Notes: generated from the letters alone by a model not told the origin. A DNA stretch of 64,000 nucleotides from a virus (IMGVR_UViG_3300023079_000003); one strand, 5' to 3'; counted from the stretch's first letter, positions 16,866-30,700 are shown. A program made the numbers and translations.

Positions 16866-17158
16866 AGAACCACCTGCCCCGCGAACTCGTCACCGTCGTC
16901 CGCCCGGGCGGACACCCGACCGTCACCCGGGTCCGCCGCACGGCCACCTTCCGCCTGGTCGGGGAGCCCGCCACCCGGGCCTGCCCCCACACGATCACCA
17001 CCTGGGACGAGATCACCGACCCCGTGCAGGGCGAGCACCACCGCGAGCGCACCTACCTCCGCCGCACCCTCACCCCGTGCGAGCGGACCGACGGGCACTA
17101 CCGCGACCTCGAGCACCCGGAGAACGCCGCTCACCGGGCAGGGAGCATCACGTGGTGA
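16862..17158 (+). CDS. Hypothetical protein
   Basis: GGAG RBS; GTGA overlap. Confidence 0.65.
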   Translation: MKNHLPRELVTVVRPGGHPTVTRVRRTATFRLVGEPATRACPHTITTWDEITDPVQGEHHRERTYLRRTLTPCERTDGHYRDLEHPENAAHRAGSITW

Positions 17159-17268
17159 AGGCCGGTTGGATGCGCGCCCTCACCGACCGGATGGTTGGCT
17201 GGTACTGGGCGTGGAAGTGGCGCCGCTGGTCCTCGCTGGGCCACCGCCGCGACGACCCACCGGCTTGA
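17152..17268 (+). CDS. Trp/Arg-rich microprotein
   Basis: GGGAG RBS; coupled to the previous gene. Confidence 0.45.
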   Translation: MVKAGWMRALTDRMVGWYWAWKWRRWSSLGHRRDDPPA

Positions 17269-17293
17269 TCAGCAAGCTAGCTGGCGCTATTGT
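17265..17293 (+). promoter_or_regulatory. Housekeeping-sigma promoter heading the biosynthetic operon
   Basis: TTGATC-N17-TATTGT upstream of the GGGAGG RBS and GTG at 17332. Confidence 0.65.
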
Positions 17294-17331
17294 CGCCCCA
17301 ACAGGAGTGTGTCCACAGCCGGGAGGCAACA

Positions 17332-18210
17332 GTGCCCGAAGACCGCCGCCTCGACTACATGCCCCTCACCGAGGTCGCGCGGGCACACCGCAACCCGAAG
17401 AAGCATGACTCCGTCGGCATCGCCCGCAGCATGGACGAGTTCGGAGTTGTCGAGATCCCCGCCCTGGACGAACGCACCGGGCGCCTCGTCGCCGGCCACG
17501 GCCGACTCGACGTGTGGTTGGCGGCGGCGGCCAAGCAGCAGCAGCCGCCCTCCGGGGTGAAGGTCGGACCGGACGGCGTCTGGCTGGTCCCCGTCCTGCG
17601 CGGCTGGGCATCAAAGGACGACGCGCACGCTGAGGCGTACCTCGTCGGCTCGAACCAGCTCACCATCAACGGCGGGTGGGACGATCCCGGCCTGGCCAAG
17701 CTCCTCGACGACCTGGCCGCAGAGGACAACAGCCTCCTCCGGGTCACCGGCTTCGACGACGACCAGCTCGACAAGCTCCTCTCGTCGACCGACACCCTGG
17801 GCGACCCCGCCGGCGGGTTCCTCAAGGACATGGCCTCCCAGCCGTTCGGCCAGACCGTCGAGCAGCAGCCCCCACCCCAGGGGCCACCGGACTACGACTG
17901 GCCCCCGCCACCGCAGACCTACACCCCCGGCGAGCCCGGCGGCGGCGGCGACGAGGAAGGCCCGGTCGGACCGCAGCTCCCCCCGGAGTTCCCGCCCACC
18001 GCGTACGGCCCCGCCGGCACTGCCGCCCAGTACGCCCCGGTCTCCTGGGTTCTCCACGCCGATGCGCGCACCCGGCTCCGCGCGGTCCTCCGCCACCTGC
18101 AGAAGACCCGCGAACTGGCCACCTCCGCCGAAGCCGTCAACGCCCTGGTCGACGACTACATCACCGCGCACAACATCACCATCGAGCAGGCAGAGGAACA
18201 GCCCGCATGA
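17332..18210 (+). CDS. ParB/Srx N-terminal domain protein
   Basis: NPKKHD..GIARS..EFG...DERTGRLVAGHGRL; N.LT..GGWD...L; TGFDDDQL; Pro/Gln linker. Confidence 0.85.
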   Translation: MPEDRRLDYMPLTEVARAHRNPKKHDSVGIARSMDEFGVVEIPALDERTGRLVAGHGRLDVWLAAAAKQQQPPSGVKVGPDGVWLVPVLRGWASKDDAHAEAYLVGSNQLTINGGWDDPGLAKLLDDLAAEDNSLLRVTGFDDDQLDKLLSSTDTLGDPAGGFLKDMASQPFGQTVEQQPPPQGPPDYDWPPPPQTYTPGEPGGGGDEEGPVGPQLPPEFPPTAYGPAGTAAQYAPVSWVLHADARTRLRAVLRHLQKTRELATSAEAVNALVDDYITAHNITIEQAEEQPA

Positions 18211-18686
18211 CCGGCATCCAGATCGTGAACGTCACCCAAACGGCCAGCACCGGCATCCTTGAGGCGCACCTCGGATGGAAGGACGTCCACGGCGCCCCCG
18301 CCGTCGGAATCCCCATGCAGTCGAACGGGCAGCTCGGCGCCGACCTCCTCCACGTCCGCGCCGGCGAGCAGTTCCCCGTGCACACCCACCCCGGGGATCA
18401 CCTGCTCTACTGCGTAGGCGGCCAGGGCACGATCACCGTCGACCAGGTCGTCTACCAGATCCGCCCCGGCGACCTCTACATGGTCGACGGCGCCGTGCCC
18501 CACGCGGTCGGCGCGATCACCGACCACACCATCCTTGCCATCGGCTCCCCCCACAAGCCGGTCGATTCCCCGGAGCGGATGACCTGGTGCGACTGGGAGG
18601 GCAACCCGGTCGAGAAACCGGTCGGCGTCGCCGGCGGCGCGGTACTCCACGATTACGTGTCCCCCGTCCTCCGCCGCATCAAATGA
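18207..18686 (+). CDS. Cupin domain protein
   Basis: FPVHTHPGDHLLYCVGGQG...PGDLYMVDGAVPHAV. Confidence 0.85.
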   Translation: MTGIQIVNVTQTASTGILEAHLGWKDVHGAPAVGIPMQSNGQLGADLLHVRAGEQFPVHTHPGDHLLYCVGGQGTITVDQVVYQIRPGDLYMVDGAVPHAVGAITDHTILAIGSPHKPVDSPERMTWCDWEGNPVEKPVGVAGGAVLHDYVSPVLRRIK

Positions 18687-19837
18687 GCCTTGACCTCACC
18701 GGCCGCCGCTGGCCTGAGGCACCGCGCTCCTCCGAGCGCCTGGCCGTCGCCGAAGCCCTCCAATCCCAGGTGTGGACCGGCGGGCAGTTCACCGAGCTGG
18801 TCGAGCAGCAGATGACAGAGCTGACCGGCGCCCGACACTGCGTGACCTTCAACTCCTGCACCTCCGCACTCCACGCCGTCCTTGCCTCCGACCAGTACGC
18901 GTCGACGACCGGGCGCATCTACACCACCCCCCTGACGTTCGTCGGCACGGTCACCGGCGCCGGGCACCTCGGCTACGACATCGAGTACCGCGACGTCCAC
19001 CCGGACACCCTGAACCTGAACCTGCCACCGGCTAACCCCCTGCCGGTCTACAACGGCCGGATTCTCGCCGTCGACCTTCACGGGGTGCCCCATAGCATCG
19101 ACCGGGATCAGGTCATCACCGACGCGTGCCAGTCGCTCGGCACCACGATCGGCGGCAAGCACCTCGGCGCGCACGGTACGCACTGCTGGTCGTTCTCCTC
19201 GGCCAAGCTCATCGCCGCCCCCGACGGCGGGGCAGTCACCACGAACAATGCCGCCCTCGCCGCCCTGCTCCGCCGGCAACGCGACTACGGGGTACGGACC
19301 CAGACCGTCCCCGGCCGGTCGAACGGCATGATGATGCACCGCGCCGACGGGCACAACTGGCGGCCGTCCGAGCTGACCATGGCCCTCGTTGCCGCCCGAC
19401 TGGAGATCCTCCAATGGGACCGCGACTCCACGGACGGCAACCTCTCCGCCCGCGCGTACCGGGTCGGCACCCGCCTCCACGAGGCCATCGACCTGGCCGG
19501 ACTGTGGAGGCAGCAGACCCGGCCGAACACCCGGGTTGCCTGGCACAAAATCCGGATCGGCCCCCCGAACTGGCAGGAACACTCCGGTGTCCACGCCGCC
19601 AACGAGCTGGGTCACCGCCTCGAGGCCGCTGGTATCCCCGTCCACCGGTGGGGTGCCATCCCCCTTCACCGGCACCCCGCCTACTTCAAGCCGACCTCGT
19701 TCCCGGTCGCGGAAGCCGCCGCCCGGTCGACGTTCTGCCTCGGCACCGAGGACTGCCCCCCGCTCACCTGGACCCCCGAAGAGGTCGAACAGGTGTGCGA
19801 CACCATCATCAAGATCGGGAAGACGGTCAGCGTATGA
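18683..19837 (+). CDS. DegT/DnrJ/EryC1/StrS-family PLP aminotransferase
   Basis: FNSCTSALH, TPLTFVGT, DACQSLG, WSFSSAKLI (PLP lysine), DGGAVTTN. Confidence 0.9.
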   Translation: MSLDLTGRRWPEAPRSSERLAVAEALQSQVWTGGQFTELVEQQMTELTGARHCVTFNSCTSALHAVLASDQYASTTGRIYTTPLTFVGTVTGAGHLGYDIEYRDVHPDTLNLNLPPANPLPVYNGRILAVDLHGVPHSIDRDQVITDACQSLGTTIGGKHLGAHGTHCWSFSSAKLIAAPDGGAVTTNNAALAALLRRQRDYGVRTQTVPGRSNGMMMHRADGHNWRPSELTMALVAARLEILQWDRDSTDGNLSARAYRVGTRLHEAIDLAGLWRQQTRPNTRVAWHKIRIGPPNWQEHSGVHAANELGHRLEAAGIPVHRWGAIPLHRHPAYFKPTSFPVAEAAARSTFCLGTEDCPPLTWTPEEVEQVCDTIIKIGKTVSV

Positions 19838-20973
19838 ACCCGCAGGTCAAGGTCGGCATCATCGGCGTCGGGAACTGCGCGCGCGCCCTCCTCGAAGGCA
19901 CCGCCTACTACCGGGCGCGCGAGTCCGGCACCCAGTTCACCGGCCGCGAGCGCATTGCCGGGCTCATGCACACCATGGTCGGACCGTACGGTCCCGGCGC
20001 GATCGAGCCCGTAGCCGCCTGGGACGTCGACACCGAGAAGGTCGGGAAAGACCTGTGGACCGCGATCCGCTCCGGGCAGAACCTCGACGTCGGCATCCGC
20101 CTCGACCGAGGTGAGGAGCCGGTCGGCGCGGACGTTGAAGTCCAGCGAGCCCCCACCCTCGACGGCACCGGCGCACGCTACCTCGACAAGATCACCCTCG
20201 CGGAGGACTGGCCGAACATCGACGGCCGCGAGGTCGAGCAGCAGATCCGCGACTCCGGCGTGCAGGTGCTCCTGAACTACCTGCCCGTCGGCTCTCAGAC
20301 CGCCACCGAGTGGTGGGCCGAGCGCGCCCTCAACACCGGCTGCGCGTTCGTGAACAACATCCCGGTATTCATCGCCCGGAACCCGACCTGGCGGCAGCGG
20401 TTCCGCGACGCCGGCCTCGCCCTCGTCGGAGACGACATCAAGTCACAGCTCGGCGCCACCTACCTCCACCGCGCCCTCGTGAAGGCGTTCTCGGACCGGG
20501 GCATCACCCTCGACCGCACCTTCCAGCTCAACGTCGGCGGCAACATGGACTTCTACAACATGCTGGAGCGCAGCCGGTTGGTGACGAAGAAGGAGTCCAA
20601 GACCGGCGCCGTCACCGACGCCTACGCCGGCAAGCTCGCCCCCGACAACGTGCACATCGGCCCCTCCGACTACGTGCCGTGGCTGGGCGACACCAAGATC
20701 GCCATCGTCAAGTGCGAAGGCCGGGGGTTCGGCGGGGCGCCGATCGAGGTCGACATGACGATCAAGGTGCCCGACTCCCCGAACAGCGCCGGGGTGGTCA
20801 TCGACGCGGCCCGGCTCGCCCGGTACGCCACCGACCGCAACGACGTGCACGTTGACCGGTGGGTGTCAGCCTGGCTGTTCAAGGCGCCCCCGGCCGACGT
20901 CGCGCAGGAGTCCGACCTGCTGGCCATGCAGCGCCTCGACGACTGGCTGCACGGCGAGGCCGGACTTCGATAG
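19834..20973 (+). CDS. ino1: Inositol-3-phosphate synthase (myo-inositol-1-phosphate synthase)
   Basis: IIGVGNCA, NYLPVGS, GDDIKSQLGAT, QLNVGGNMDF, SKTGAV, DSPNSAG..ID. Confidence 0.95.
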   Translation: MNPQVKVGIIGVGNCARALLEGTAYYRARESGTQFTGRERIAGLMHTMVGPYGPGAIEPVAAWDVDTEKVGKDLWTAIRSGQNLDVGIRLDRGEEPVGADVEVQRAPTLDGTGARYLDKITLAEDWPNIDGREVEQQIRDSGVQVLLNYLPVGSQTATEWWAERALNTGCAFVNNIPVFIARNPTWRQRFRDAGLALVGDDIKSQLGATYLHRALVKAFSDRGITLDRTFQLNVGGNMDFYNMLERSRLVTKKESKTGAVTDAYAGKLAPDNVHIGPSDYVPWLGDTKIAIVKCEGRGFGGAPIEVDMTIKVPDSPNSAGVVIDAARLARYATDRNDVHVDRWVSAWLFKAPPADVAQESDLLAMQRLDDWLHGEAGLR

Positions 20974-21695
20974 TGCCGATCACCCCGTACCTGATCTCCC
21001 TCCCGCGCAGGCAGGACCGGCGGGACGAGTGGGCCACGGCCTGGGACGGGTACGGATTCAACCCACCCCGGGTGATCGACGGCGTTGACGGCTCAGCCCT
21101 CCCGGCGGACCGGGTCGACTCGCACATGAGGACGGCCCTCGCCGCCGGGCACAAGATCAAGCACCGGCGCCACTTCGCCGGCACCCTGGGCTGCCTCCTC
21201 GCCCACCGCGCTGCCTGGCAGACCTGGCTCATGGACAGATCCCCGGGCGGGTATCTCCTGCTCATGGAGGACGACGCCTCCCCCACCCCCGGGCTCACCC
21301 CCGCCCGGTGGCTGCTCGACCTGCAGCAAGCTGTCCGGCAGCTCCCGCCCGGCTGGCTGATGCTGAACCTCGGGGCCAAGGTCCGCAACCAGCCCCGTGA
21401 GGTGCCCGGCGCCCCGAGCCTGGCCTACTCCGGCCGCGACACCCAATGCCTCCACGCCATCCTCTACACGGTCGATGGGGTCATGGCCATGCTCAAGGCC
21501 ACCGCCGACCAGGAGCAGCCCCTCGACTTCGCGTGGCGTCCCGTCCTCGCCGGCGGCAACTGCTACTCGACCCGCCGGTGGCTGGCCATCCAGCGCTGGT
21601 CGTACTCGGACATCTCCCACTTCACCCGGTCGCCGCACCTCGATCACCGGCAGCGCATCGCCCGGTTCCACCAGCCGGAGGTGATCCACCGGTGA
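20973..21695 (+). CDS. Glycosyltransferase family 25-like
   Basis: YLISLPRRQDRR...IDGVDG...GCLLAHRAAW...LLMEDDA...HAILYT. Confidence 0.8.
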   Translation: MPITPYLISLPRRQDRRDEWATAWDGYGFNPPRVIDGVDGSALPADRVDSHMRTALAAGHKIKHRRHFAGTLGCLLAHRAAWQTWLMDRSPGGYLLLMEDDASPTPGLTPARWLLDLQQAVRQLPPGWLMLNLGAKVRNQPREVPGAPSLAYSGRDTQCLHAILYTVDGVMAMLKATADQEQPLDFAWRPVLAGGNCYSTRRWLAIQRWSYSDISHFTRSPHLDHRQRIARFHQPEVIHR

Positions 21696-22483
21696 CCGCC
21701 GACCTGGACGTCATCAACACCTGGACCAACCCCAACCCGGGGCTGCGCCGGCGCACCTACGAGCAGGTGCCGCGCCGGGGCGGCAGGTGGCGGCCGACCT
21801 GGACGGTCGACGGAGTCACGATCAACCGGCCCGGCTGGGACTACGACCGCAACCAGTTCACCGGCGTCCGGAACAACGGCACCGCCTGGACCGCCGACTT
21901 CACCCCCGGGCTGCTCTACACGATCGCCTCCCAGGTGCGCGGCTGGTGCTGGCCCCGCCAGGGCGGCACCCTGTACGAGCTGGCCCAAGCCTCGACCGGG
22001 CAGGTCGTCGAGATCGGCTCCTGCTTCGGCCTCTCCGCCGTGTGGACCGGCTGGGGCATCCGCACCTCGTCCGACCCCGACCGGCGCCTTCATTGCGTCG
22101 ACACCTGGCACAGCCTCGACGTCAGGGGTGACGGCTCCCCCGCCGGGAAGTCCTCCCAGCCGGAGTTCATCCAAAACATGACCTACACCGGCCTCGCCTA
22201 CCACACCTGCCTCCACCAGATGCTCTCCGAACAGGCCGCTGCGACCTGGGACGAGGGACCTGTCGGCATGATCTACATCGACGGCTGGCACACCTACGCC
22301 ATGGCAAAAGCCGACCACCTGTCCTGGCTCCCCCACCTCACCCCCGGCGCGGTAGTCGCCTTCGACGACTGCTCCCCCGCCTGGCCCGGGGTGCTCCGCT
22401 ACCAGCGCGAGCTGGCCGGGCGCGGAGACCACGAGCTGATCGGCCGGGCCGACTCGATGCTCACCTGGAGGTACCGGCCGTGA
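21692..22483 (+). CDS. Class I SAM-dependent methyltransferase (Methyltransf_24-like)
   Basis: VVEIGSCFGLS, HCVDTW, MIYIDGWHTY, LTPGAVVAFDD. Confidence 0.85.
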   Translation: MTADLDVINTWTNPNPGLRRRTYEQVPRRGGRWRPTWTVDGVTINRPGWDYDRNQFTGVRNNGTAWTADFTPGLLYTIASQVRGWCWPRQGGTLYELAQASTGQVVEIGSCFGLSAVWTGWGIRTSSDPDRRLHCVDTWHSLDVRGDGSPAGKSSQPEFIQNMTYTGLAYHTCLHQMLSEQAAATWDEGPVGMIYIDGWHTYAMAKADHLSWLPHLTPGAVVAFDDCSPAWPGVLRYQRELAGRGDHELIGRADSMLTWRYRP

Positions 22484-23310
22484 GAACCGCCCTGAAGGCC
22501 AAGAGCGCCTACCGCAACGAGGACGTCGCCCGGGTGTTCGCCACCATCCGCGACTTCATCAGCGAGGACGAGGCCAACGCCGCCGTCGACCAGGCAGTCC
22601 GCGAGGTCCACCAGACCGTCGGCCTCCGCAACCTCGACCGGGTCGCCTACGGCTGGTCCGGCGGCAAGGACTCCATCGCCCTGCAGGTCGTCATGGAAGC
22701 CGCCGGCGTACAACGGGCCATCCTCGGCACCATCCCCCACCTCGAGTTCAAGGCGTACCTCGACTGGGTCGAGGCGAACCAGCCGGACGGCCTCTACCAC
22801 CACATGAACATGGCACTCGACGTCGATTGGCTGGCCCGGCCCGGAAACGACCGGTACCTGTTCCCCAAGACCTCCCGGCTCGGCTACTTCTGGACCACCG
22901 CCGGCACCCGCGCCGCGCAGAAGGCATACCAGCGGCAGTACGACCCGCCGTTCCAGATTTACGGGCGCCGCTGGGCCGACGGCAACCAGATCGGACCGGA
23001 CGGGTTCTCCGTCTCCGCCGCCACCGGCATCCGCTCCTACAGCCCGCTGAGGGCCTGGTCCCACGAGACCGTCCTCGGCGTAATCCACTACTTCAACCGG
23101 CCTCTCCCTCCCGTGTACGGGTGGCCTCACGGGTGGACCGCCGGCACCGGCACCTGGTGCGGTCGCCGTGTCGGCACCGACGACGAGGCATGGGCCGAGA
23201 CCTGGACCATCGAGTCCGACCGGGTGCGCGAGGCAGCCGACGCCGGAGTGACCGGCGCCGCCGAGTGGATGCAGAGGAACGGCCATGGCCGGACAGAACA
23301 AAAGACCTGA
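22480..23310 (+). CDS. PP-loop / PAPS reductase-family protein
   Basis: YGWSGGKDS, YGRRWAD, SPLRAWSHETV..YF..PLPPVY. Confidence 0.85.
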   Translation: MRTALKAKSAYRNEDVARVFATIRDFISEDEANAAVDQAVREVHQTVGLRNLDRVAYGWSGGKDSIALQVVMEAAGVQRAILGTIPHLEFKAYLDWVEANQPDGLYHHMNMALDVDWLARPGNDRYLFPKTSRLGYFWTTAGTRAAQKAYQRQYDPPFQIYGRRWADGNQIGPDGFSVSAATGIRSYSPLRAWSHETVLGVIHYFNRPLPPVYGWPHGWTAGTGTWCGRRVGTDDEAWAETWTIESDRVREAADAGVTGAAEWMQRNGHGRTEQKT

Positions 23311-24658
23311 GACCTACACCCGGACCGGCCGGGGCGGCGCCGCGCACGTCCTCCCCCGAGTGCAGCTCGACACCGACGTCATGACCCTGGCCAAGGAGCG
23401 CATCGCCATCGCCGCCGAGATCCACGACAACATCCTCGTGGCGTTCTCCGGCGGCAAGGACTCCACCGTCACCCTGCAGCTCACCCTCGCCGTTCTCCAC
23501 GAGAACCCCGAGCTGGGTGCCAAGCACCTGCCGCTGCGGGTCGTGTTCGGGGACGAGGAGTGCATCCCGAAGGAGACCGAGGAGTACGTCCGCCGGGTGT
23601 CGCAGCGGCCGGACGTCCGCCTTGAGTGGTACTGCCTGCCGTTGAAGATGCGCAACGCCTGCTCCCGCAAGCACCCCGAGTGGTGGACGTGGGCGCCCGA
23701 GTCCGAGGAGCTGTGGGCCAGGCCCCTGCCCCCGGAGGCGATCACCCACCTCGACGGCTTCACGAACTGGCCACCCGAAGCCCGCCTGTCGTGGCCGCAG
23801 ACCAACGAACTCCTCGCACCCCCGCACCTCGGGAACGTGTGCATCCTGATGGGCATCCGCGCGCAGGAGTCCCTGACCCGGCTCCGCGCCGTGTCCATCG
23901 CCGGCAAGCGCGAATACAACTGGCTGGTCAAGCAGGGCGGTGGCAACGAAATCCTCAACGGCTCCTCAGGCGGGAACGTGTGGAAGGCGTACCCGATCTA
24001 CGACTGGCTGACCGAGGACGTGTGGACGGCCCCGAAGCGGTTCGGCTGGGACTACAACCACGCCTACGACCTGCTCGCCATGGCCGGGGTCAACCCCGCG
24101 AAGCAGCGATGCTCGCCGGCGTTCGGGGAGGAGCCGATCGGCGGCCTCCACGTCTTCGCCCAAGCCTTCCCTGAGGTGTGGGAGAAGATGGTCTACCGGG
24201 TGCCCGGTGTCGGCTCCGCCTACCGGTACGCCCTCACCGAGCTGTACGGGCACGGCTCCCGCCCGGAGCGCCCGGACGACATGACCTGGCACGACTTCAT
24301 CCTGCACTTCGTGGCCAAGCACCCGGACGGCATGAGGCAGAAGCTCGCCGCCCGGCTGACCGACATCATCCGCCGGCACTACCGGGTCACGTCGAACCCG
24401 ATGCTGGTCAAGGCCCCCCACCCCGACAGCGGCCTCTCCTGGGACTGGCTCCTCATGGTCGCCATGCGCGGGGACACCAAGCAGAGGAAGCAGCCGACGA
24501 ACCGGATCACCCGGGAGCCCGTCGAGTTGAAACGCATGTGGCACCGGTACGCGAAGGAGCTGGACGACACGATCAAGGCAGGCCAGTTCGATATCCTGTC
24601 CTATCCTCGTCACGCCCCCCGCGACCCCTACGCCCTGATCCCTGAGGAGTTCCGGTGA
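23285..24658 (+). CDS. IbrA/YbdN-like PAPS reductase-family protein (DUF3440-type)
   Basis: VAFSGGKDS, WYCLP..MRNACS..WW.W, MGIRAQES..R, YPIYDW.TEDVW, DYN.AYD. Confidence 0.85.
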   Translation: MAGQNKRPETYTRTGRGGAAHVLPRVQLDTDVMTLAKERIAIAAEIHDNILVAFSGGKDSTVTLQLTLAVLHENPELGAKHLPLRVVFGDEECIPKETEEYVRRVSQRPDVRLEWYCLPLKMRNACSRKHPEWWTWAPESEELWARPLPPEAITHLDGFTNWPPEARLSWPQTNELLAPPHLGNVCILMGIRAQESLTRLRAVSIAGKREYNWLVKQGGGNEILNGSSGGNVWKAYPIYDWLTEDVWTAPKRFGWDYNHAYDLLAMAGVNPAKQRCSPAFGEEPIGGLHVFAQAFPEVWEKMVYRVPGVGSAYRYALTELYGHGSRPERPDDMTWHDFILHFVAKHPDGMRQKLAARLTDIIRRHYRVTSNPMLVKAPHPDSGLSWDWLLMVAMRGDTKQRKQPTNRITREPVELKRMWHRYAKELDDTIKAGQFDILSYPRHAPRDPYALIPEEFR

Positions 24659-24960
24659 CCCTTACCGAAGACCCGTCCGACCCGCGACTCACCCACGGAC
24701 CCGACGACGGACCCGCCGCGCAGGCCCCGGTCTACCTGGTCCTGTCGGAGGAGGAGCGAGCCCAGGGTTTCATCCGCCCGGTCCGGCGAACCTACGTGCA
24801 CACGGTCTGTGGTGCGGTCACGACGATGGCCCCGGCGATCGCAGAGACGTACGCGCGCAACCCCGGCTTCTACGGGGCCACCTACTGCACCGGGTGCAGC
24901 CAGCACCTCCCCGTTGGCGAGTTCACCTGGGACGGCGACGGCAGCGTGGTCGGATCATGA
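24655..24960 (+). CDS. Small Zn-finger protein
   Basis: H.VCG..T.M...AETYARNP.FYGATYCTGC..H. Confidence 0.75.
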   Translation: MTLTEDPSDPRLTHGPDDGPAAQAPVYLVLSEEERAQGFIRPVRRTYVHTVCGAVTTMAPAIAETYARNPGFYGATYCTGCSQHLPVGEFTWDGDGSVVGS

Positions 24961-25574
24961 CCGATACCGATCGCCCCGTATCCACCCCTCACCGGGAAGT
25001 CATGACCGATTTTGGTCAGCTCGACCCGGGCGGGTCGGCCCTCTCCCTGGTCGCCCAGCCCGTCAGCAGCATCCAGTGGGTGCCGGCCTCGGCGCTGTCC
25101 GCGAACGACTGGAACCCCAACAAGCAGGCTCCGCCCGAGTTCAGACTGCTGAAGCAGTCCCTGCTCGAGGACGGCTGGACACAGCCGATCGTGGTCCGCG
25201 CCCACGACGACGGCGCCCGCCTGGAGATCGTCGACGGATTCCACCGGTGGACCCTCGCCTCCAAGGACAAGCAGGTCGGCGCGCTCACCACCGTCGACGG
25301 GCAGGTGCTCGTCCCCGTCGTCACCCTGCACGAGACCTCCGACCAGGAGGCCCGCGCCTCGACGATCCGCCACAACCGGGCGCGCGGCACCCACCTCGTG
25401 CTCCGCATGGCCGATATCGTGGCCGCCCTCGTGAAGGCCGGCATGACGACCGAGCAGGTGCAAAAGCAGCTCGGCATGGACGAGGAAGAGGTCGAGCGGC
25501 TCCTCGACCGGGGCAACATGCTCAACCGTGGATCCCGCACCGACGGCAGCTTCGGCACCGGCTGGACAGTCTGA
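24957..25574 (+). CDS. IbrB/YbdM-like ParB domain protein
   Basis: ANDWNPN..APPE..LL..SLLEDGWTQPIV, IVDGFHRW, ASTIRHNRARGTH. Confidence 0.85.
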   Translation: MTDTDRPVSTPHREVMTDFGQLDPGGSALSLVAQPVSSIQWVPASALSANDWNPNKQAPPEFRLLKQSLLEDGWTQPIVVRAHDDGARLEIVDGFHRWTLASKDKQVGALTTVDGQVLVPVVTLHETSDQEARASTIRHNRARGTHLVLRMADIVAALVKAGMTTEQVQKQLGMDEEEVERLLDRGNMLNRGSRTDGSFGTGWTV

Positions 25575-27019
25575 TGACGTACTCCACCAAGGGCCTCTAC
25601 ATCAACGGCGAGTGGGACCAGACCGGCTACGGCAAGGGGATCTACTCGCCCATTGACGGCCGCCTGATCGGCACCGCCTGGTTTGGGCAGATCACCCACC
25701 TCGCCGCCGCCTCCGCAGCCGCCCGCAACGCCCTCGACGGCGAATGGTCCCGGTGGACCGCAGAGGACCGGGCCGCCGCGCTGCGCCGGCTCGCAGACGG
25801 ATTCCACGACCGGCAGCAGGATCTCGGCGCGATGATCCTCGCGGAGGTCGGATCCCCGGTCGACTTCGCGTACGGGCCGCAGATCGACCACCCGCTCCGC
25901 ATCATCAACTACTACGCGTCCGTGGCCGAGAAGTACCGGTTCTCGGAGTCGCGGGTCAACGGGGGCGGGGACGCGCCGGGCACGATCGTCCGCAGGCTCC
26001 CGGTCGGCGCGGTCGGAATCATCACCCCGTGGAACATGCCCCTCAAAACGATCATGATGAAGATGGCGCCCGCGCTCGCCGCCGGGTGCACGGTCGTGAT
26101 CAAACCGGCCGAGGAAACCCCCTTCAACGCCATGGTGCTGGCCGAGCTGGTCGACGCCGCCGGATTCCCGCCCGGCGTGGTCAACGTCGTCCCGGCCGTA
26201 CGCGAGGACGCCGCCTACCTGCCGACCTCGACCTACCTCGACAAGATCGCCTTCACCGGGTCAACCGCCGTCGGCAAGTGGATCGCCCAGCAGTGCGGCG
26301 CCGGCATCCGCCGCTACTCCCTCGAACTGGGCGGCAAGTCCCCGACCGTGCTCCTCCCCGACGCCGACCTCGACGCCTGGGAGGCGTCCGTCCCCTCAGC
26401 CTCCCTGCTCAACAACGGGCAGATTTGCTCGAACCAGACACGCATCCTGTACCCCCGGAAGCTGCAGACCGAGGTCATCCGCCGGCTCGAACGGGTCCTC
26501 GACCGGCAGCGGGTCGGAGACCCCTCCCTCCCGGGCACCACGATGGGGCCGCTCATCACCACCGCCGCAGTCGACCGCTACCACGACGCCCTCAGGGGCG
26601 CTCAGCTCGCCGGCGGCACCGTACGGTACGCGGAGGACGCGGTTGACCCGCGACGCCCCTCAGGGGGCAACTGGGTCACCCCCGCCCTGGTCTCCGGCGT
26701 CGGCCGCGAAGCCCTCATCGCCCGCAAAGAGGTGTTCGGGCCGGTCCTCGTCGCCATGCCGTACGACAACGAGCCGCACGCGGTCGAGCTGGCCAACGAC
26801 TCGCCGTACGGTCTCCACGCCGGCGTCTGGTCCCACCGGAAGTCCGCCGCCCTGGCCGTGGCCAACCGGCTGCGGGTCGGGCAGATCCAGATCAACGGTG
26901 CGGACATGCCGCTGCACACCCCCCTGGGCGGGTTCAAGGAGTCCGGCTGGGGCCGCGAGCTGGGACCTGAGGGCATGACCGGCTACCTCGAAACCAGTGC
27001 GACGGTGGCCTCATGGTGA
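25574..27019 (+). CDS. NAD(P)+-dependent aldehyde dehydrogenase
   Basis: ITPWNMP, KPAEETP, FTGSTAVG, ELGGKSP, NGQICS, EVFGPV, GGFKESGWGRE. Confidence 0.95.
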   Translation: MTYSTKGLYINGEWDQTGYGKGIYSPIDGRLIGTAWFGQITHLAAASAAARNALDGEWSRWTAEDRAAALRRLADGFHDRQQDLGAMILAEVGSPVDFAYGPQIDHPLRIINYYASVAEKYRFSESRVNGGGDAPGTIVRRLPVGAVGIITPWNMPLKTIMMKMAPALAAGCTVVIKPAEETPFNAMVLAELVDAAGFPPGVVNVVPAVREDAAYLPTSTYLDKIAFTGSTAVGKWIAQQCGAGIRRYSLELGGKSPTVLLPDADLDAWEASVPSASLLNNGQICSNQTRILYPRKLQTEVIRRLERVLDRQRVGDPSLPGTTMGPLITTAAVDRYHDALRGAQLAGGTVRYAEDAVDPRRPSGGNWVTPALVSGVGREALIARKEVFGPVLVAMPYDNEPHAVELANDSPYGLHAGVWSHRKSAALAVANRLRVGQIQINGADMPLHTPLGGFKESGWGRELGPEGMTGYLETSATVASW

Positions 27020-27501
27020 TGCGCAACGACATGGCGTTCCGGGCCGAGGTCGCCAAGCGCCGGGCCGAGGCCATCAAGCTCCGGCTGGCCGGGGCCACCT
27101 ACCAGCAGATCGCAGACTCCGAGCTGTACCCGGAGGGCACCCACAGGTCGCAAGCGTTCGTCGACATCAAACGCGCCCTGCAGGAGCACCAGGCTGAACT
27201 GCACGCCGACGTCGAGCTGCTGCGCACCGAGGACCTGCTCCGGCTCGACCGGCTGAACCTCGCCATGTGGCAGCGCGCGATCGGCGGCGACGTCCGCGCG
27301 GCAACGCTTTGCTTGAAGATCATCGAGCAGCGGAGCAAGCTCACGGGTACCGAGGCGCCCCAGCGCCACGCCTGGGAGAGCGAGTCCGATATTGACCGCG
27401 CCATACGAGACCTTCGAGAGCAGCTCGGCGAACCGGGACGACAAGGTCCGCCTGCTATCGAAACTGGAGGAGTTGCAGAGGCTTCGCCGACTGGCGACTG
27501 A
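27013..27501 (+). CDS. terS: Terminase small subunit (HTH type)
   Basis: RRAEAIKLRLAGATYQQIA...RLDRL..AMW..A..GD..A....IEQRSKL.G; lies directly upstream of TerL. Confidence 0.7.
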   Translation: MVMRNDMAFRAEVAKRRAEAIKLRLAGATYQQIADSELYPEGTHRSQAFVDIKRALQEHQAELHADVELLRTEDLLRLDRLNLAMWQRAIGGDVRAATLCLKIIEQRSKLTGTEAPQRHAWESESDIDRAIRDLREQLGEPGRQGPPAIETGGVAEASPTGD

Positions 27502-29038
27502 ACAGGCCCGCGCACGCTTCCTTGAGGTCAACCCCACCCCCGGGGTGTTCGCCCGGCGGATGCAACGCAACGTCAAGCAGACGCCGGCGCTTGACGCGAT
27601 CGACCGCGAGCTGGTCCGCCTCTCCCGCGTCCCGCTTGACCGTGGGCGGCTCATGGTGTTCGTCCCGCCACAGGAGGGCAAGTCCACCCGGGTCTCCTGC
27701 TGGTACCCGCTGTGGCGGCTCGCCCAGGACCCGACCCTCCGCATCGCCATCGTGTCCTACAACCAGGACAAGGCCCGCCGGTGGGGGCGCTGGCTCCGGG
27801 CCGCGATCCGAGGCTTCCCCGAGCTGGGCCTGACCCTGAAGAACGACAGCCGCGCATCTGACCACTTCGAGCTGACCTCCGGCGGGTCCGTCCTGTGCGT
27901 CGGTGTCGGCGGCGGCATCACCGGCGAACCGGTCGATGAGATGATCATCGACGACCCGGTGCGCGGCCGGGCCGAGGCAGAGTCCCCCCGCTACCGGGAA
28001 GCGGCCTGGGAGTGGTGGGAGTCGAACGGGGCCACCCGGTTGTCCTCCCGGGGCCGGGTGGTCCTCATGCTCACCCGCTGGCACGCGGACGACCTCGCCG
28101 GCAGGCTCATCAAGAACGAGCCCATGGAGTGGCACGTCCTGCGCATCCCCGCCATCCGGCACCCCGAACTGCCGGTCATCCGAGGGCACGACGGCGCCTC
28201 CGTCTACGACCCCAACGGTGAACTGATCTCCGTCCAGAACCGCAGGCCCGGCTACTACAAGGAGCTGAAGGCCAAACGGTCCGGGTACGTGTGGCGGTCG
28301 GTCTACGACCAGGACCCCGTGGCCGCAGAGGGCAACCTGTTCAAGCGCGACGACTTCCGGTTCTGGCAGCCGCTCCCGCGTGACCCGGCCCGGGTCGACG
28401 CCCTCTCCGGTGCGCGCATCCAGCTCCCCGACATCGGCGTCAACATCTACCTCGCGGACTACTGGCGGTTCATCACCGTCGACCTGGCCGCGTCGAAGAA
28501 GACCAGCGCCGACTTCACCGTCTGCTCCGTGTGGATGATCTTCGACGGGCACCTGATCCTCCTCGACCGCGTCCGAGGCCGGATCGAGGAGGCCGCGCAC
28601 TGGGACATGCTGCGCCCCCTCGTCGCTAAGTGGGCCGCCCCTGACGTGTTCGTCGAGCGAGGGTTCATCGGCACCACCCTCGTCATCGACGCCACGAAGC
28701 ACAACATCCGCATCCAGCCGGTCGACCCCGACACGGACAAGGTCACCCGGGCGCTGCCGGCGACCTACCGCACCGCCTCGCACACCTGCTGGTTCCCCGC
28801 CCAGGTCGACTGGCTGGACGAGTGGCTGGACGAACTGGCCGAGTTCCCCCAGGGCGCCCACGATGACCAGGTCGACACGTTCGCGTACGCGGCCCGCATC
28901 GCCTCCGCGCACTGGCTCCCCCCGGAGTCCCCCAAGCGCGAGACCGAGCAGACCGCAACGGCGGCCTCCGACCTGGCGTTCCAAGCCTCGACCGGGCAGT
29001 CCGGCGGGGTCGACTTCTTCAAGAACTGGCCTGTCTAG
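27392..29038 (+). CDS. terL: Terminase large subunit
   Basis: PPQEGKS Walker A, IIDDPVRG Walker B, TRWHADDLAG, VDLA...DFT, FPQGAHDDQVD. Confidence 0.95.
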   Translation: MTAPYETFESSSANRDDKVRLLSKLEELQRLRRLATEQARARFLEVNPTPGVFARRMQRNVKQTPALDAIDRELVRLSRVPLDRGRLMVFVPPQEGKSTRVSCWYPLWRLAQDPTLRIAIVSYNQDKARRWGRWLRAAIRGFPELGLTLKNDSRASDHFELTSGGSVLCVGVGGGITGEPVDEMIIDDPVRGRAEAESPRYREAAWEWWESNGATRLSSRGRVVLMLTRWHADDLAGRLIKNEPMEWHVLRIPAIRHPELPVIRGHDGASVYDPNGELISVQNRRPGYYKELKAKRSGYVWRSVYDQDPVAAEGNLFKRDDFRFWQPLPRDPARVDALSGARIQLPDIGVNIYLADYWRFITVDLAASKKTSADFTVCSVWMIFDGHLILLDRVRGRIEEAAHWDMLRPLVAKWAAPDVFVERGFIGTTLVIDATKHNIRIQPVDPDTDKVTRALPATYRTASHTCWFPAQVDWLDEWLDELAEFPQGAHDDQVDTFAYAARIASAHWLPPESPKRETEQTATAASDLAFQASTGQSGGVDFFKNWPV

Positions 29039-29047: not shown

Positions 29048-29212
29048 GTGTCCGCTCTCGCCGCCGTCATCTTCTTCGCCCTGGCCCTGATCCTCGACGT
29101 CCTCGACCAGTCCGGCGACCTGGTGTCGACCTTCACCCTGGCCGGGCTGCTCTGCATCGCCCTGCACCTCACCGGATTCATCACCGCCGGACCGTGGACC
29201 CGCCGGCAGTGA
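29048..29212 (+). CDS. Small 2-TM membrane protein (54 aa, not in the ORF track)
   Basis: VSALAAVIFFALALILDVLDQSGDLVSTFTLAGLLCIALHL...; AGGAGG RBS. Confidence 0.7.
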   Translation: MSALAAVIFFALALILDVLDQSGDLVSTFTLAGLLCIALHLTGFITAGPWTRRQ

Positions 29213-29958
29213 CCTACCCCCGGCCGTACCGGCTCCTCGGGTCGAACAGCGAACTCGCCGGGGAGCGCATCCTGAACTGGTCGCTCCCCGCCTGGGCCGG
29301 GCGGCTCAAGGACGGCCGCACCTACAACACCTGCCCGCAGGCCGGCGTCTGCCACCTCGCCTGCTACGCCCTGTCCGGCACCTACCGGTTCTCCAACGTC
29401 CGAGCCCGGCACGAGGCCAACCTGGCGTACGTCCTCGACGACCTCCCCCGCTGGCACGACCACATGTGCTGGGAGCTGTCCCGCCGCAAGCGCACCTTCA
29501 CCTGGGTTCGCATCCACGACTCCGGCGACTTCTTCTCGGACGACTACACCAACGCCTGGCTGTCGATCATCCGGAACACCCCCGAGATGGCCTTCTACGC
29601 CTACACCAAAGAGGTCGACCGGTTCCGGCGTCTCGTCGAGCCCGACCCGCCCGGGAACTTCCTCTGGGCGTACTCCTGGGGCGGTAAGCAGGATCGTCAG
29701 CTTGATGACCAGCGCGACCGGGTAGCGGACGTCTTCCCCGACATGGCGTCCATGCAGGCCGCCGGCTACTCCGACCAGTCCGAGTCCGACGTCCTCGCCG
29801 TCACCGGCCCGAGGCAGGTGGGCATCCACGTGAACAACATCCCCCACCTGAAGAAGAAGCAGGGGCCGCGATCATTCCGGGCGTGGCAGCGGGAGGCAGA
29901 CGCCAAGCACGATCAGCGCGGCCAGCGGGCCAACGGCACCAGCATCGACCGGAGCTGA
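29209..29958 (+). CDS. GP88-family protein
   Basis: WSLPA...TCPQAGVCHLACYA...WVRIHDSGDFF...FYAYTK. Confidence 0.75.
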   Translation: MTYPRPYRLLGSNSELAGERILNWSLPAWAGRLKDGRTYNTCPQAGVCHLACYALSGTYRFSNVRARHEANLAYVLDDLPRWHDHMCWELSRRKRTFTWVRIHDSGDFFSDDYTNAWLSIIRNTPEMAFYAYTKEVDRFRRLVEPDPPGNFLWAYSWGGKQDRQLDDQRDRVADVFPDMASMQAAGYSDQSESDVLAVTGPRQVGIHVNNIPHLKKKQGPRSFRAWQREADAKHDQRGQRANGTSIDRS

Positions 29959-30667: not shown

Positions 30668-30700
30668 CGTTCCGGGCCAGCTCCGGGTGGGGCGGCGCGC

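What the first reader, a model, noticed from the sequence alone, without database searches (positions are those of the whole stretch)
17265..27019. Eleven-gene phage biosynthetic operon fused to the packaging genes: candidate new DNA (or virion) hypermodification system
Seen: one promoter (TTGATC-N17-TATTGT) is followed by tightly overlapped genes for ParB, cupin, DegT aminotransferase, Ino1, GT25, SAM methyltransferase, a PP-loop protein, an IbrA-like PP-loop protein, a Zn finger, an IbrB-like ParB and an ALDH. The ALDH stop overlaps the TerS start, and catalytic motifs look intact. Known: ParB plus PP-loop enzyme pairings beside terminases occur in phage DNA-modification loci, and PP-loop ATPases activate acids or bases by adenylation. 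Inference: the operon builds an amino-cyclitol or sugar group, methylates or glycosylates it, and the PP-loop/ParB proteins attach it to DNA around packaging. For example, ALDH makes an acid, a PP-loop adenylates it, and the amine forms an amide. I know of no described phage system with this gene set.
Basis: partly seen in the sequence, partly recalled or inferred. Interest (0 to 1): 0.92.

Follow-up and report, generated by a model that had tools for sequence, protein, structure and literature searches.

The report
Phage aminocyclitol PP-loop/ParB modification cassette
Just upstream of its DNA-packaging genes, this high-GC phage carries a gene cassette seen in at least 13 actinobacterial phages and prophages. 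It pairs inositol and amino-sugar-type biosynthesis enzymes with two ATP-pyrophosphatases and two ParB-like proteins. It most likely attaches an unusual chemical group to phage DNA, but no experiment has yet shown this.

Summary
The eleven genes are real, in the stated order, tightly overlapped, and run straight into TerS/TerL. The claimed promoter is only an 8/12 consensus match and is not supported.

Six of the genes form a conserved, mobile core: ParB-like A, DegT aminotransferase, Ino1, a small PAPS-reductase-like PP-loop protein ("G_PP"), IbrA and IbrB. This core recurs with the same synteny in 13 distinct actinobacterial phage or prophage loci, on at least three unrelated terminase backbones.
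- Cupin, GT25 and Methyltransf_24 are frequent accessories.
- ALDH is shared only with the closest relative.
- The Zn-ribbon gene is unique to this window.

A wider module (G_PP, ParB, IbrA, IbrB) occurs in 17 further loci, many from low-GC contigs. There it usually sits beside an SSF transporter, and again mostly beside terminase.

Several links point to DNA modification:
- One cassette is contiguous with a complete QueC-DpdA-QueD-QueE-FolE cluster.
- One has a DNA-methyltransferase-like gene inserted.
- A T4-like phage places ino1 inside its 7-deazaguanine cluster.
- ParB-A resembles the ParB domain of DNA methyltransferases.

Neither PP-loop protein has a conserved cysteine cluster, so Dnd-type sulfur chemistry is unlikely.

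My best reading is post-replicative DNA hypermodification with an inositol-derived amine (confidence about 0.4). No paper I found describes this system.

The parts
17265..17293 (+). Promoter-like TTGATC-N17-TATTGT (weak, unverified)
   Evidence: Present in the sequence. It is an 8/12 match, below the scan threshold, and it overlaps the stop of small ORF 17152-17268.
17332..18210 (+). ParB-like protein A: N-terminal ParB nucleotide-binding-type domain, Pro-rich linker, small C-terminal domain, and no DNA-binding domain recognised by any family search. It lies upstream of DegT in all 13 actinobacterial cassettes and is the first cassette gene in 12 (in L006 an SSF gene lies between).
   Evidence: phrog_620/498 E~4e-21. 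PADLOC Type II MTase N-terminal ParB region, 1.2e-13. Homologues upstream of DegT in all related loci. SD GGGAGG lies before GTG 17332.
18207..18686 (+). Cupin_2 protein with an HxHxxxD...H metal motif; frequent accessory
   Evidence: Pfam Cupin_2 5.6e-13. Homologues at 55-77% identity in L004, L020, L048, L050, L051, L054 and L055, and 46% in L023.
18683..19837 (+). DegT/DnrJ/EryC1/StrS-family PLP aminotransferase (core)
   Evidence: Pfam 2.7e-41. The lysine in 'SFSSAK' aligns with ArnB's 'SFHAIK' lysine. Always directly upstream of Ino1 in the 13 loci.
19834..20973 (+). myo-Inositol-3-phosphate synthase homologue, Ino1 (core)
   Evidence: Pfam PF01658 1.2e-31. TIGR03450 361 bits, below the equivalog cut-off of 638. 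Full-length match to M. tuberculosis Ino1 1gr0, 1.5e-96. Phage clade is 60-74% identical to the window's copy, against 49% for host ino1.
20973..21695 (+). GT25-like glycosyltransferase with an EDD motif; accessory
   Evidence: Pfam Glyco_transf_25 25.2 bits (cut-off 24); phrog_2835. Weak homologues in L004 (x2), L006, L053 (x2) and L055.
21692..22483 (+). Methyltransf_24 SAM-dependent methyltransferase; accessory
   Evidence: Pfam 2.4e-21. Same position in L048 (49% identity) and L054 (39%).
22480..23310 (+). G_PP: small PAPS-reductase-like PP-loop ATP pyrophosphatase (core of the wider module)
   Evidence: phrog_424. ESM Atlas PAPS_reduct clusters. AF2 pLDDT 95; fold matches CysH, TtuA, FMN adenylyltransferase and GMP synthase. 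YGWSGGKD is invariant and there is no conserved Cys. 69 relatives found.
23285..24658 (+). IbrA-like PP-loop protein (PAPS_reduct + DUF3440) (core)
   Evidence: Pfam PF01507 + PF11922. phrog_2302 8e-80. Weak DndC similarity at the PP-loop only. No conserved Cys cluster.
24655..24960 (+). 101-aa protein with H-x2-C ... C-x2-C (possible Zn ribbon); unique to this window
   Evidence: No family hit and no homologue in any related locus. Strong SD GAGGAG and a GTGA overlap with the IbrA stop.
24957..25574 (+). IbrB-like ParB/Srx-domain protein (core)
   Evidence: Pfam ParB_N; phrog_2159 4e-60. DGxHRW and HNRARG motifs are near-invariant.
25574..27019 (+). NAD(P)-dependent aldehyde dehydrogenase; lineage-specific accessory
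   Evidence: Pfam Aldedh 4.7e-123. No specific NCBIfam equivalog. Found only in the closest relative L048/L049, at 60% identity and the same position.
27013..27501 (+). Putative small terminase subunit; its start overlaps the ALDH stop
   Evidence: Position and size; weak HTH_23. Homologues sit directly upstream of TerL in L004, L005, L007, L008, L048 and L053.
27473..29038 (+). Large terminase subunit
   Evidence: Terminase_6N; tblastn to annotated terminases.

Best explanation
The region is an expanded version of a phage 'IbrAB-type' nucleic-acid modification module, and most likely hypermodifies the phage's own DNA after replication.

Shown:
- A conserved four-protein core of two PP-loop ATP pyrophosphatases (G_PP, IbrA) and two ParB/Srx-fold proteins (ParB-A, IbrB).
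- In actinobacterial phages this core brackets a translationally coupled DegT aminotransferase-Ino1 pair.

Inferred mechanism:
1. Ino1 makes inositol-3-phosphate from glucose-6-phosphate.
2. After oxidation (by a host enzyme, by the cupin, or via the enzyme's own inosose intermediate), DegT converts the keto-cyclitol into an aminocyclitol.
3. A PP-loop enzyme adenylates an oxygen on the acceptor, either a base carbonyl or carboxyl or a phosphate. This is the chemistry of TilS, QueC, GMP synthase and FMN adenylyltransferase.
4. The amine, or the phospho-cyclitol, displaces AMP.
5. The ParB-like partners load or activate the enzymes on double-stranded DNA, as ParB-like activators do for phage thymine dioxygenases.

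GT25, the methyltransferase, the cupin and ALDH tailor the group in particular lineages. Placement at the head of the packaging genes suggests middle-to-late expression, so that DNA is modified before or during packaging.
For: 1. Conservation. The order ParB-A/[cupin]/DegT/Ino1/[GT25 or MTase]/G_PP/IbrA/IbrB recurs in 12 other loci. These include prophages of Actinomadura sp. K4S16, Streptomyces sp. NRRL B-1347, S. sp. HUCO-GS316 and S. chilikensis. They sit on different terminase backbones: TerL is 81% identical in L048, 36% in L053, and gives no tblastn hit in L004, L005, L007, L008, L050 or L052.
2. Wider module. G_PP-ParB-IbrA-IbrB occurs in a further 17 of the 34 loci fetched with G_PP, many from low-GC contigs. 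There it mostly lies just upstream of TerS/TerL, with an SSF transporter, or an ABC permease plus SsuA/TauA-like binding protein, next to it.
3. Links to DNA modification:
- L055 continues in overlapping reading frames from IbrB into QueC-DpdA (phrog_887, 1e-45)-QueD-QueE-FolE.
- L054 has a phrog_363 DNA-methyltransferase-like gene between IbrA and IbrB.
- Stenotrophomonas phage Moby has ino1 inside FolE-ino1-x-QueC-DpdA-QueE.
- The ParB-A N-domain matches the ParB domain of a Type II DNA methyltransferase model (1.2e-13) and phrog_498.
4. Precedent. Phage ParB-like proteins with a nucleotide-binding domain and a C-terminal domain but no DNA-binding domain activate post-replicative DNA base-modifying enzymes. 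Those clusters co-occur with glycosyltransferases (31%), ParBs (27%), terminases (19%), O-methyltransferases and aminotransferases (PMC13229309). DndB/DndC and DpdB are other ParB-plus-modification pairings (PMC12839542 and PMC10853773).
5. Chemistry.
- The PP-loop is invariant in both enzymes, and no conserved Cys cluster exists. This fits adenylation followed by attack of a non-sulfur nucleophile.
- Other variants carry a weak GATase_6-like gene (E 3e-4, below cut-off; L023) or an Ldh_2 dehydrogenase (L032) next to G_PP. This points to a variable small-molecule co-substrate.
6. The phage Ino1 clade is distinct from host ino1. MTase and ALDH are retained at 49% and 60% identity in a diverged relative, so they are under selection.
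Against: - No result here shows that DNA is the target; all evidence is gene context and fold.
- IbrA/IbrB have no known biochemistry. E. coli IbrAB are annotated as co-activators of prophage gene expression (feature note), and YbdNM has no assigned function.
- The window has no queC, dpdA, queD, queE or folE. No TET/JBP or thymidylate-synthase-like gene turned up among the larger upstream ORFs I scanned. So no acceptor-generating enzyme is evident.
- Ino1 looks like an orthodox MIPS. No inositol dehydrogenase or phosphatase is encoded, so the step that gives DegT a ketone is missing.
- GT25 and Methyltransf_24 are typical of glycan decoration.
- The links to 7-deazaguanine genes rest on one cassette and one T4-like lineage. 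Moby, Cr30 and RP13 have ino1 without DegT or PAPS_reduct.
- In L006 the SSF transporter and DegT+Ino1 occur together, so 'import or synthesise the same substrate' is not a clean pattern.
- The PAPS-reductase/FMNAT fold fits adenylyl transfer onto a small-molecule phosphate equally well.
Confidence: 0.4

Rival explanations
1. There are two unrelated units. The sugar and cyclitol genes (cupin, DegT, Ino1, GT25, methyltransferase, ALDH) decorate virion proteins or the host envelope, as in mycobacteriophage virion glycosylation, or boost host inositol and mycothiol supply. The IbrAB-type genes do something separate, such as late-gene activation or help with packaging.
For: - IbrA/IbrB occur in 223 phage records without any biosynthetic genes.
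- GT25 and Methyltransf_24 are glycan-type enzymes.
- IbrAB are annotated as co-activators of prophage gene expression.
- Ino1 occurs alone in large phages.
- The position next to structural genes would suit virion decoration.
Against: - DegT-Ino1 is bracketed by ParB-A upstream and G_PP-IbrA-IbrB downstream in all 13 loci, across unrelated terminase backbones, with overlapping stops and starts.
- All 5 viral contigs found with the Ino1 query carry the whole core.
- GT25 and the methyltransferase are absent from many cassettes, so no transferase for a protein or lipid target is conserved.
- G_PP is essentially never found without IbrA/IbrB.
Confidence: 0.2
2. The cassette makes a diffusible small molecule, not a polymer modification. 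A ParB/Srx-fold kinase and FMNAT/CysD-like adenylyltransferases convert a cyclitol phosphate or an imported solute into a nucleotide-activated or amidated metabolite. That product could be an aminocyclitol-type inhibitor, a decoy for host immune signalling, or a cofactor.
For: - The nearest folds for G_PP and IbrA include FMN adenylyltransferase/FAD synthase, ATP sulfurylase CysD and PAPS reductase, which act on small phospho- or sulfo-compounds.
- The Ino1 product is a phosphate ester.
- ParB/Srx-fold enzymes include small-molecule kinases (sulfiredoxin and archaeal serine kinase, from my own knowledge).
- Transporters sit next to the module in low-GC phages.
- L054 adds an AMP-binding (ANL) enzyme fused to a methyltransferase.
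Against: - The ParB-A domain is most similar to the ParB domains fused to DNA methyltransferases.
- One cassette is contiguous with the dpdA/queCDE cluster and one has a DNA MTase-like insertion.
- The module keeps its position beside terminase across many phage types.
- No export or self-resistance gene is seen.
Confidence: 0.15
3. The PP-loop/ParB core modifies RNA, either tRNA or phage transcripts. This would parallel TilS, TtuA, NcsA or ThiI-type enzymes, and the cyclitol amine would be added to a nucleoside in RNA.
For: - Structural neighbours of G_PP include the tRNA thiolases TtuA and NcsA, and archaeal PUA-PAPS-reductase fusions.
- TilS/MesJ appears among weak IbrA matches.
- An effect on gene expression would fit the IbrAB 'co-activator' name.
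Against: - No RNA-binding domain (PUA, THUMP or TilS C-terminal) was detected.
- The partners are ParB-type proteins, which are known from DNA systems.
- The neighbours are DNA modification and packaging genes.
Confidence: 0.08
4. The accessory genes are a recently captured piece of host DNA (a moron) with no joint function.
For: ALDH and the Zn protein are absent from nearly all related cassettes. The ALDH resembles ordinary bacterial aldehyde dehydrogenases.
Against: - Base composition and GC3 are uniform with the rest of the phage.
- Every junction overlaps or abuts.
- The core is conserved in 13 loci.
- ALDH and the methyltransferase are kept at 60% and 49% identity in a relative whose TerL is 81% identical.
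- Phage Ino1 is distinct from host ino1.
Confidence: 0.05

Closest known systems
IbrA/IbrB (E. coli prophage 'co-activators'; K-12 paralogues YbdN/YbdM) and their phage homologues (phrog_2302 / phrog_2159)
   Same: Genes 23285-24658 and 24957-25574 are members. They show PAPS_reduct + DUF3440 next to a ParB_N protein, with strong PHROG matches. The pair is common in phages, often near terminase or genome ends.
   Different: Here the pair is joined by a second PP-loop protein (G_PP), a second ParB-like protein and a DegT-Ino1 pair. G_PP is almost absent from cultured-phage records: 1 unannotated metagenomic record. No biochemical function is known for the family.
Phage post-replicative hypermodification clusters built on 5mYOX (TET/JBP) dioxygenases with ParB-like activators (PMC13229309)
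   Same: A ParB-like protein with an N-terminal nucleotide-binding-type domain and a C-terminal domain but no recognised DNA-binding domain. It co-occurs with glycosyltransferase, O-methyltransferase and aminotransferase genes, beside terminase genes.
   Different: No TET/JBP dioxygenase was found. The candidate DNA-acting enzymes are PP-loop ATP pyrophosphatases. The donor pathway is cyclitol-based, not nucleotide-sugar or amino-acid based.
Dnd phosphorothioation (DndB ParB-like + DndC PAPS-reductase-like)
   Same: A ParB-fold protein is paired with a PAPS-reductase-family PP-loop ATPase that acts on DNA. IbrA gives weak DndC hits.
   Different: There is no conserved cysteine dyad or Fe-S ligands (against PMC10853773). 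No DndA, DndD or DndE partners are present. The similarity is limited to the PP-loop.
Phage and bacterial 7-deazaguanine DNA modification (FolE, QueD, QueE, QueC, DpdA, with DpdB ParB-like)
   Same: A PP-loop enzyme (QueC) adenylates a carboxyl group and an amine displaces AMP; a ParB-like ATPase assists insertion. One cassette (L055) is fused to such a cluster, and Moby has ino1 inside one.
   Different: The window has none of these genes. G_PP and IbrA are not QueC (no PF06508 hit).
PP-loop amination/amidation enzymes (TilS lysidine synthase, GMP synthase, NAD synthetase, QueC) and PAPS-reductase-fold adenylyltransferases (FMNAT, CysD)
   Same: SGGKDS PP-loop and the alpha/beta ATP-pyrophosphatase fold. 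This is the proposed chemistry: adenylate an oxygen, then displace AMP with a nucleophile.
   Different: Only fold-level similarity (TM about 0.3-0.5, 12-19% identity). The substrate-binding parts are unrelated.
Aminocyclitol biosynthesis in actinomycetes (Ino1 + inositol dehydrogenase + DegT-family inosose aminotransferase, e.g. the StsC type)
   Same: Ino1 plus a DegT-family aminotransferase. A glutamine:scyllo-inosose transaminase is among the PDB matches (7b0d, 6.6e-13).
   Different: No phosphatase, inositol dehydrogenase, kinase or amidinotransferase is encoded. DegT is about equally distant from NDP-sugar aminotransferases. The context is a phage packaging region, not an antibiotic gene cluster.

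Membership tests
IbrA/IbrB pair | PAPS_reduct PP-loop domain followed by DUF3440 in one protein | tested here: met
   PF01507 1.3e-11 + PF11922 1.9e-8; phrog_2302 8e-80.
IbrA/IbrB pair | Adjacent ParB_N (ParB/Srx) partner gene | tested here: met
   PF02195 27.5 bits; phrog_2159 4e-60. Separated from IbrA only by the 101-aa gene.
IbrA/IbrB pair | Activates prophage gene expression (the phenotype that named the family) | not testable with these tools
   Needs genetics. Only annotation text was seen.
Dnd phosphorothioation (DndC/DndB) | DndC-specific cysteine dyad / Fe-S ligands | tested here: not met
   No Cys is invariant. Only IbrA C117 reaches about 90%, and G_PP has none at that level. The feature is described in PMC10853773.
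Dnd phosphorothioation (DndC/DndB) | DndA cysteine desulfurase and DndD/DndE partners in the locus | tested here: not met
   None among the eleven genes or their flanks.
7-deazaguanine DNA modification | DpdA (TGT-like) plus FolE/QueD/QueE/QueC | tested here: not met
   tblastn of the L055 set against the window gave nothing below E 0.4. The cluster is present only in relative L055.
5mYOX/ParB hypermodification clusters | TET/JBP-type Fe(II)/2OG dioxygenase | tested here: not met
   No such Pfam hit in the operon or in the ten largest upstream ORFs. The cupin is Cupin_2, not TET/JBP. Smaller ORFs were not scanned.
5mYOX/ParB hypermodification clusters | ParB-like partner with a nucleotide-binding domain + C-terminal domain and no DNA-binding domain | tested here: inconclusive
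   The architecture of ParB-A fits: N-domain, Pro-rich linker, about 60-aa C-domain. I made no direct comparison with the published ParBs.
myo-Inositol-3-phosphate synthase (MIPS) | Full-length homology, including the NAD-binding GxGxxA motif and the catalytic-domain motifs | tested here: met
   1gr0 1.5e-96 over residues 3-370, with GVGNCA, GDDIKSQ.GAT, QLNVGGNMDF and DSPNSAGV blocks identical. PF01658 is over cut-off.
myo-Inositol-3-phosphate synthase (MIPS) | Equivalog-level score (same function as cellular Ino1) | tested here: not met
   TIGR03450 gives 361 bits against a cut-off of 638. The related fold also makes five-membered cyclitol phosphates (6k96), so the product is not certain.
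DegT/DnrJ/EryC1/StrS aminotransferases | Family domain plus the PLP-binding lysine | tested here: met
   PF01041 2.7e-41. The lysine in SFSSAK aligns with the lysine of ArnB's SFHAIK motif; its identity as the PLP lysine is from my memory. The substrate class (NDP-sugar or inosose) is not resolved.
Phage DNA hypermodification system (general) | A non-canonical nucleoside in virion DNA that depends on these genes | not testable with these tools
   Requires LC-MS/MS and genetics.

The most novel reading that the evidence does not exclude
The widespread but unexplained IbrA/IbrB family, together with G_PP and ParB-A, is a new class of post-replicative DNA-modifying machinery. In it, PP-loop ATP pyrophosphatases adenylate DNA, and ParB-like partners load them. 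In these actinophages it installs an inositol-derived aminocyclitol, which would be the first cyclitol-bearing DNA hypermodification. In the low-GC phages it installs an imported solute.
Probability: 0.22. Interest if true: 0.92.

Novelty: new variant of a known kind. Interest (0 to 1): 0.72.

Why it matters
IbrA/IbrB-type PP-loop plus ParB pairs occur in hundreds of phage genomes and in E. coli K-12 (YbdNM) with no known biochemistry. This cassette gives them a concrete, testable context: a dedicated Ino1-DegT supply line, and a physical link in one relative to a 7-deazaguanine cluster.

If the target is DNA, this would add both a new enzymology (ATP-pyrophosphatase-driven, ParB-assisted) and a new chemical class (cyclitol) to phage DNA hypermodification. 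That has consequences for evasion of restriction and CRISPR, for sequencing artefacts, and for tools that label DNA.

If the target is something else, it still defines a mobile, terminase-linked phage metabolic module that no paper I found describes.

Cultured strains carrying the cassette in phage-like regions offer a starting point for experiments: Streptomyces sp. NRRL B-1347, S. chilikensis, Streptomyces sp. HUCO-GS316 and Actinomadura sp. K4S16.

Tried and rejected
- Megablast of the region against 50,697 phage records found no match.
- The nearest held record, G001, is 99% identical to the window but covers only 31229-64000. It says nothing about the operon.
- A search for fused (longer) forms of G_PP found none.
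- PDB sequence and profile searches for G_PP and IbrA gave only generic PP-loop hits. Foldseek gave only the generic PAPS-reductase/FMNAT/TtuA fold.
- Pattern scans of IMG/VR for ALDH and the methyltransferase found nothing. Both were later found in L048 and L054 through exact-protein look-ups.
- The complex prediction for G_PP with ParB-A gave no verdict (score 0.00). It is not used as evidence either way.
- Dnd-like sulfur chemistry was rejected for lack of conserved cysteines.
- A 7-deazaguanine pathway in the window was rejected.
- 'The transporter replaces Ino1+DegT' does not hold as a clean rule, because L006 has both.
- Cr30 and RP13 ino1 neighbourhoods are uninformative.
- Literature searches for IbrA/IbrB, DUF3440, PAPS reductase + ParB, inositol + hypermodification, and ybdN/ybdM found no functional description. 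One wanted paper (PMC4241021) is not held.
- A survey of 301 Streptomyces species genomes found G_PP only in the seed genome, so the cassette is rare there.

Full report
**Setting.** The window is about 70% GC throughout. Nearly all of it is coded on the + strand.
- About 17 kb of small genes comes first, mostly without family matches.
- The region in question follows.
- Then come TerS, TerL, a GP88-family protein, a Mu-like portal and structural genes.
- No cultured phage matches at the DNA level. The best TerL matches are about 35% identical, from actinobacterial and cyanobacterial phages.
- An IMG/VR fragment (G001) is 99% identical to 31229-64000 but stops short of the operon.

**The observation.** GC3 frame plots and start-codon inspection give eleven genes between 17332 and 27019. 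Their stops and starts overlap by 1-26 nt at nine of the ten internal junctions, and the tenth abuts with no gap. The ALDH stop lies inside the TerS start cluster ATGGTGATG (27013-27021). No + strand terminator-like site lies inside.

- Over Pfam cut-off: Cupin_2, DegT, Inos-1-P_synth, Glyco_transf_25 (barely), Methyltransf_24, PAPS_reduct + DUF3440, ParB_N and Aldedh.
- The first gene and the 276-aa 'PP-loop protein' (here G_PP) are recognised only by PHROGs, PADLOC and the ESM Atlas, as ParB-like and PAPS-reductase-like.
- The 101-aa gene has no relatives. Its zinc finger is only an HxxC...CxxC pattern.
- Catalytic motifs are intact where I could check them.

The promoter is the weak point.
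- The two hexamers are there but match 8/12, and the consensus scan reports no site in 16 kb.
- The -35 hexamer overlaps the stop of a 38-codon ORF (17152-17268) that is itself coupled to the gene before it.
- The transcription unit may therefore start further upstream.

**Comparative genomics: the core.** Searching IMG/VR with Ino1 returned five contigs, and all five carry DegT, Ino1, G_PP, IbrA and IbrB in the same order. Searching with G_PP returned 29 viral and 5 genomic loci. Exact-protein look-ups of further G_PP relatives added seven annotated neighbourhoods.

After removing duplicates, 13 loci including the window share this order: ParB-A, [cupin], DegT, Ino1, [GT25-like and/or Methyltransf_24], G_PP, IbrA (sometimes duplicated), IbrB. 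In 10 of the 13, TerS and TerL follow.

The four loci in named genomes are phage-like regions of Actinomadura sp. K4S16, Streptomyces sp. NRRL B-1347, Streptomyces sp. HUCO-GS316 and S. chilikensis.

The backbones differ.
- L048 is a true relative: TerL 81%, portal 74%, and it shares the globin gene.
- L053's TerL is 36% identical.
- Six others give no TerL match at all.

The cassette therefore moves as a unit yet keeps its place beside the packaging genes.

Accessory genes across the 13 loci:

| Gene | Loci carrying it |
|---|---|
| cupin | 7 |
| GT25-like | 5 |
| Methyltransf_24 | 3 |
| ALDH | 2 (window and L048, 60% identity) |
| Zn protein | 1 (window only) |

The two host genomes I searched each carry a prophage Ino1 (66-69% identical to the window's) and a housekeeping ino1 (49%). 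The phage gene is thus an old phage lineage, not a recent capture. G_PP was found in only 1 of 301 Streptomyces species genomes.

**Comparative genomics: the wider module.** In the other G_PP loci, many from low-GC contigs (including Bacteroidota, Prevotellaceae and Oscillospiraceae MAGs), the usual order is:
1. SSF-family transporter
2. sometimes a signal-peptide protein
3. G_PP
4. a roughly 200-aa ParB-like protein with a C-terminal CPxCG ribbon
5. IbrA
6. IbrB
7. TerS, TerL and portal

- The ParB-like protein aligns with the window's first gene. The core is therefore two PP-loop enzymes plus two ParB-fold proteins.
- The transporter is nearest to DUR3 urea and CHT1 choline transporters.
- Two loci instead carry an ABC permease plus an SsuA/TauA-like binding protein.
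- L023 has a GATase_6-like gene (E 3e-4, below cut-off) and a cupin after G_PP.
- L032 has a 3-dehydro-L-gulonate-2-dehydrogenase-like enzyme.
- L054 has an AMP-binding/methyltransferase fusion.

This is a constant core beside variable small-molecule genes, as expected for a system that attaches a lineage-specific group to a common target. It is not a clean 'import or synthesise' alternation, because L006 has both the SSF transporter and DegT-Ino1.

**What points to DNA.**
1. In L055 the cassette runs through a 68-codon gene straight into QueC, a DpdA homologue (phrog_887, 1e-45), QueD, QueE and FolE, all with overlapping junctions. That is a complete phage 7-deazaguanine DNA-modification cluster.
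2. In L054 a DNA-methyltransferase-like gene (phrog_363) sits between IbrA and IbrB.
3. In the unrelated T4-like Stenotrophomonas phage Moby, ino1 (41% identical) lies inside FolE-ino1-x-QueC-DpdA-QueE. That genome has neither DegT nor PAPS_reduct.
4. The ParB-A N-domain is most similar to the ParB domains fused to DNA methyltransferases.
5. A 2026 study showed that phage ParB-like proteins lacking a DNA-binding domain activate post-replicative thymine dioxygenases on dsDNA. Such clusters co-occur with glycosyltransferases, ParBs, terminases, O-methyltransferases and aminotransferases (PMC13229309).
6. DndB/DndC and DpdB are further ParB-plus-modification pairings.

**What the enzymes say about chemistry.**
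- G_PP folds with high confidence (pLDDT 95) and IbrA reasonably (82).
- Both match only the generic PAPS-reductase/FMN-adenylyltransferase/TtuA/GMP-synthase ATP-pyrophosphatase fold.
- The PP-loop is invariant. No cysteine is invariant in either family, and only IbrA C117 reaches about 90%. This argues against DndC-type or CysH-type sulfur chemistry.
- It favours plain adenylation followed by attack of another nucleophile.
- The fold cannot tell whether the adenylated oxygen is a base carbonyl or carboxyl (as in TilS, QueC or GMP synthase) or a phosphate (as in FMNAT or CysD).
- Ino1 looks like an orthodox MIPS. DegT has its lysine aligned with ArnB's, but its substrate class is unresolved.
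- No encoded enzyme supplies the ketone that DegT needs. This step is inferred: a host dehydrogenase, the cupin, or release of the inosose-phosphate intermediate.

**Verdict.** The gene list is right. The idea of a co-functioning phage biosynthetic and modification cassette next to the packaging genes is supported for a six-gene core, with cupin, GT25 and the methyltransferase as recurrent accessories. The ALDH-based example mechanism and the single promoter are not supported.

I put about 0.4 on post-replicative DNA hypermodification with an inositol-derived group. The rivals are:
- separate glycan decoration plus an unrelated IbrAB function (0.2)
- a diffusible nucleotide-activated or amidated metabolite (0.15)
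- RNA modification (0.08)
- functionless captured DNA (0.05)

I found no paper describing this cassette or the biochemistry of IbrA/IbrB. The case is directly testable, because four cultured actinomycetes carry related cassettes in phage-like regions.

Noticed in passing
window 13363-14325 (+): A 320-aa phage protein with a C-terminal globin domain (PF00042, 4.2e-10). A 40%-identical homologue with the same Pfam hit sits at the same relative position in the related contig L048 (1348-2268). A phage-encoded globin looks unusual to me.
   Followed up: partly
window 2281-2898 (+): DUF1643 protein (PF07799, 8e-35) among the early genes. From memory this family may belong to the uracil-DNA-glycosylase-like superfamily, which would be relevant to base modification. 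I did not check this.
   Followed up: no
window 29209-29958 (+); L005 6916-7695; L007 7086-7844; L008 7194-7868; L053 3591-4364: A GP88-family protein (PF17338, 1.5e-53; weak DUF5131 similarity; Cys-rich N-terminus). It lies after TerL in the window but immediately upstream of ParB-A in four other cassettes. It may be a further component of the system.
   Followed up: partly
window 17152-17268 (+): A 38-codon Trp-rich ORF. It leaves only 63 nt before ParB-A.
   Followed up: partly
window 29913-31148 (-): Five small minus-strand ORFs (40-84 aa) sit between GP88 and the portal gene, interrupting an otherwise + strand late region. Two have homologues at the same place in L048.
   Followed up: no
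L013 7478-10004; L016; L042 (low-GC relatives): Phage-encoded SSF-family transporter (nearest PDB matches are DUR3 urea and CHT1 choline transporters). It is followed by a 202-aa signal-peptide protein directly upstream of G_PP. Together they look like a phage-borne uptake route.
   Followed up: partly
L005 11946-14692; L008 11929-14736; L020 10588-13316: IbrA is tandemly duplicated in three related loci. Both copies are 52-54% identical to the window's IbrA.
   Followed up: no
L051 8991-9992: Ino1 is called as two pieces (58 aa + 232 aa) in this contig. This could be a frameshift, a decaying copy, or an assembly error.
   Followed up: no
L045 (Stenotrophomonas phage Moby) 6201-11615: ino1 is embedded in the FolE-QueC-DpdA-QueE cluster of a T4-like phage. 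The published description of a sister phage treats ino1 as an unrelated bacterial acquisition (PMC9025141). It may be part of a 7-deazaguanine derivative pathway.
   Followed up: partly
window 60761-63882 (-): The right end of the window switches to minus-strand genes. This may be a lysogeny or early module. I did not annotate it.
   Followed up: no
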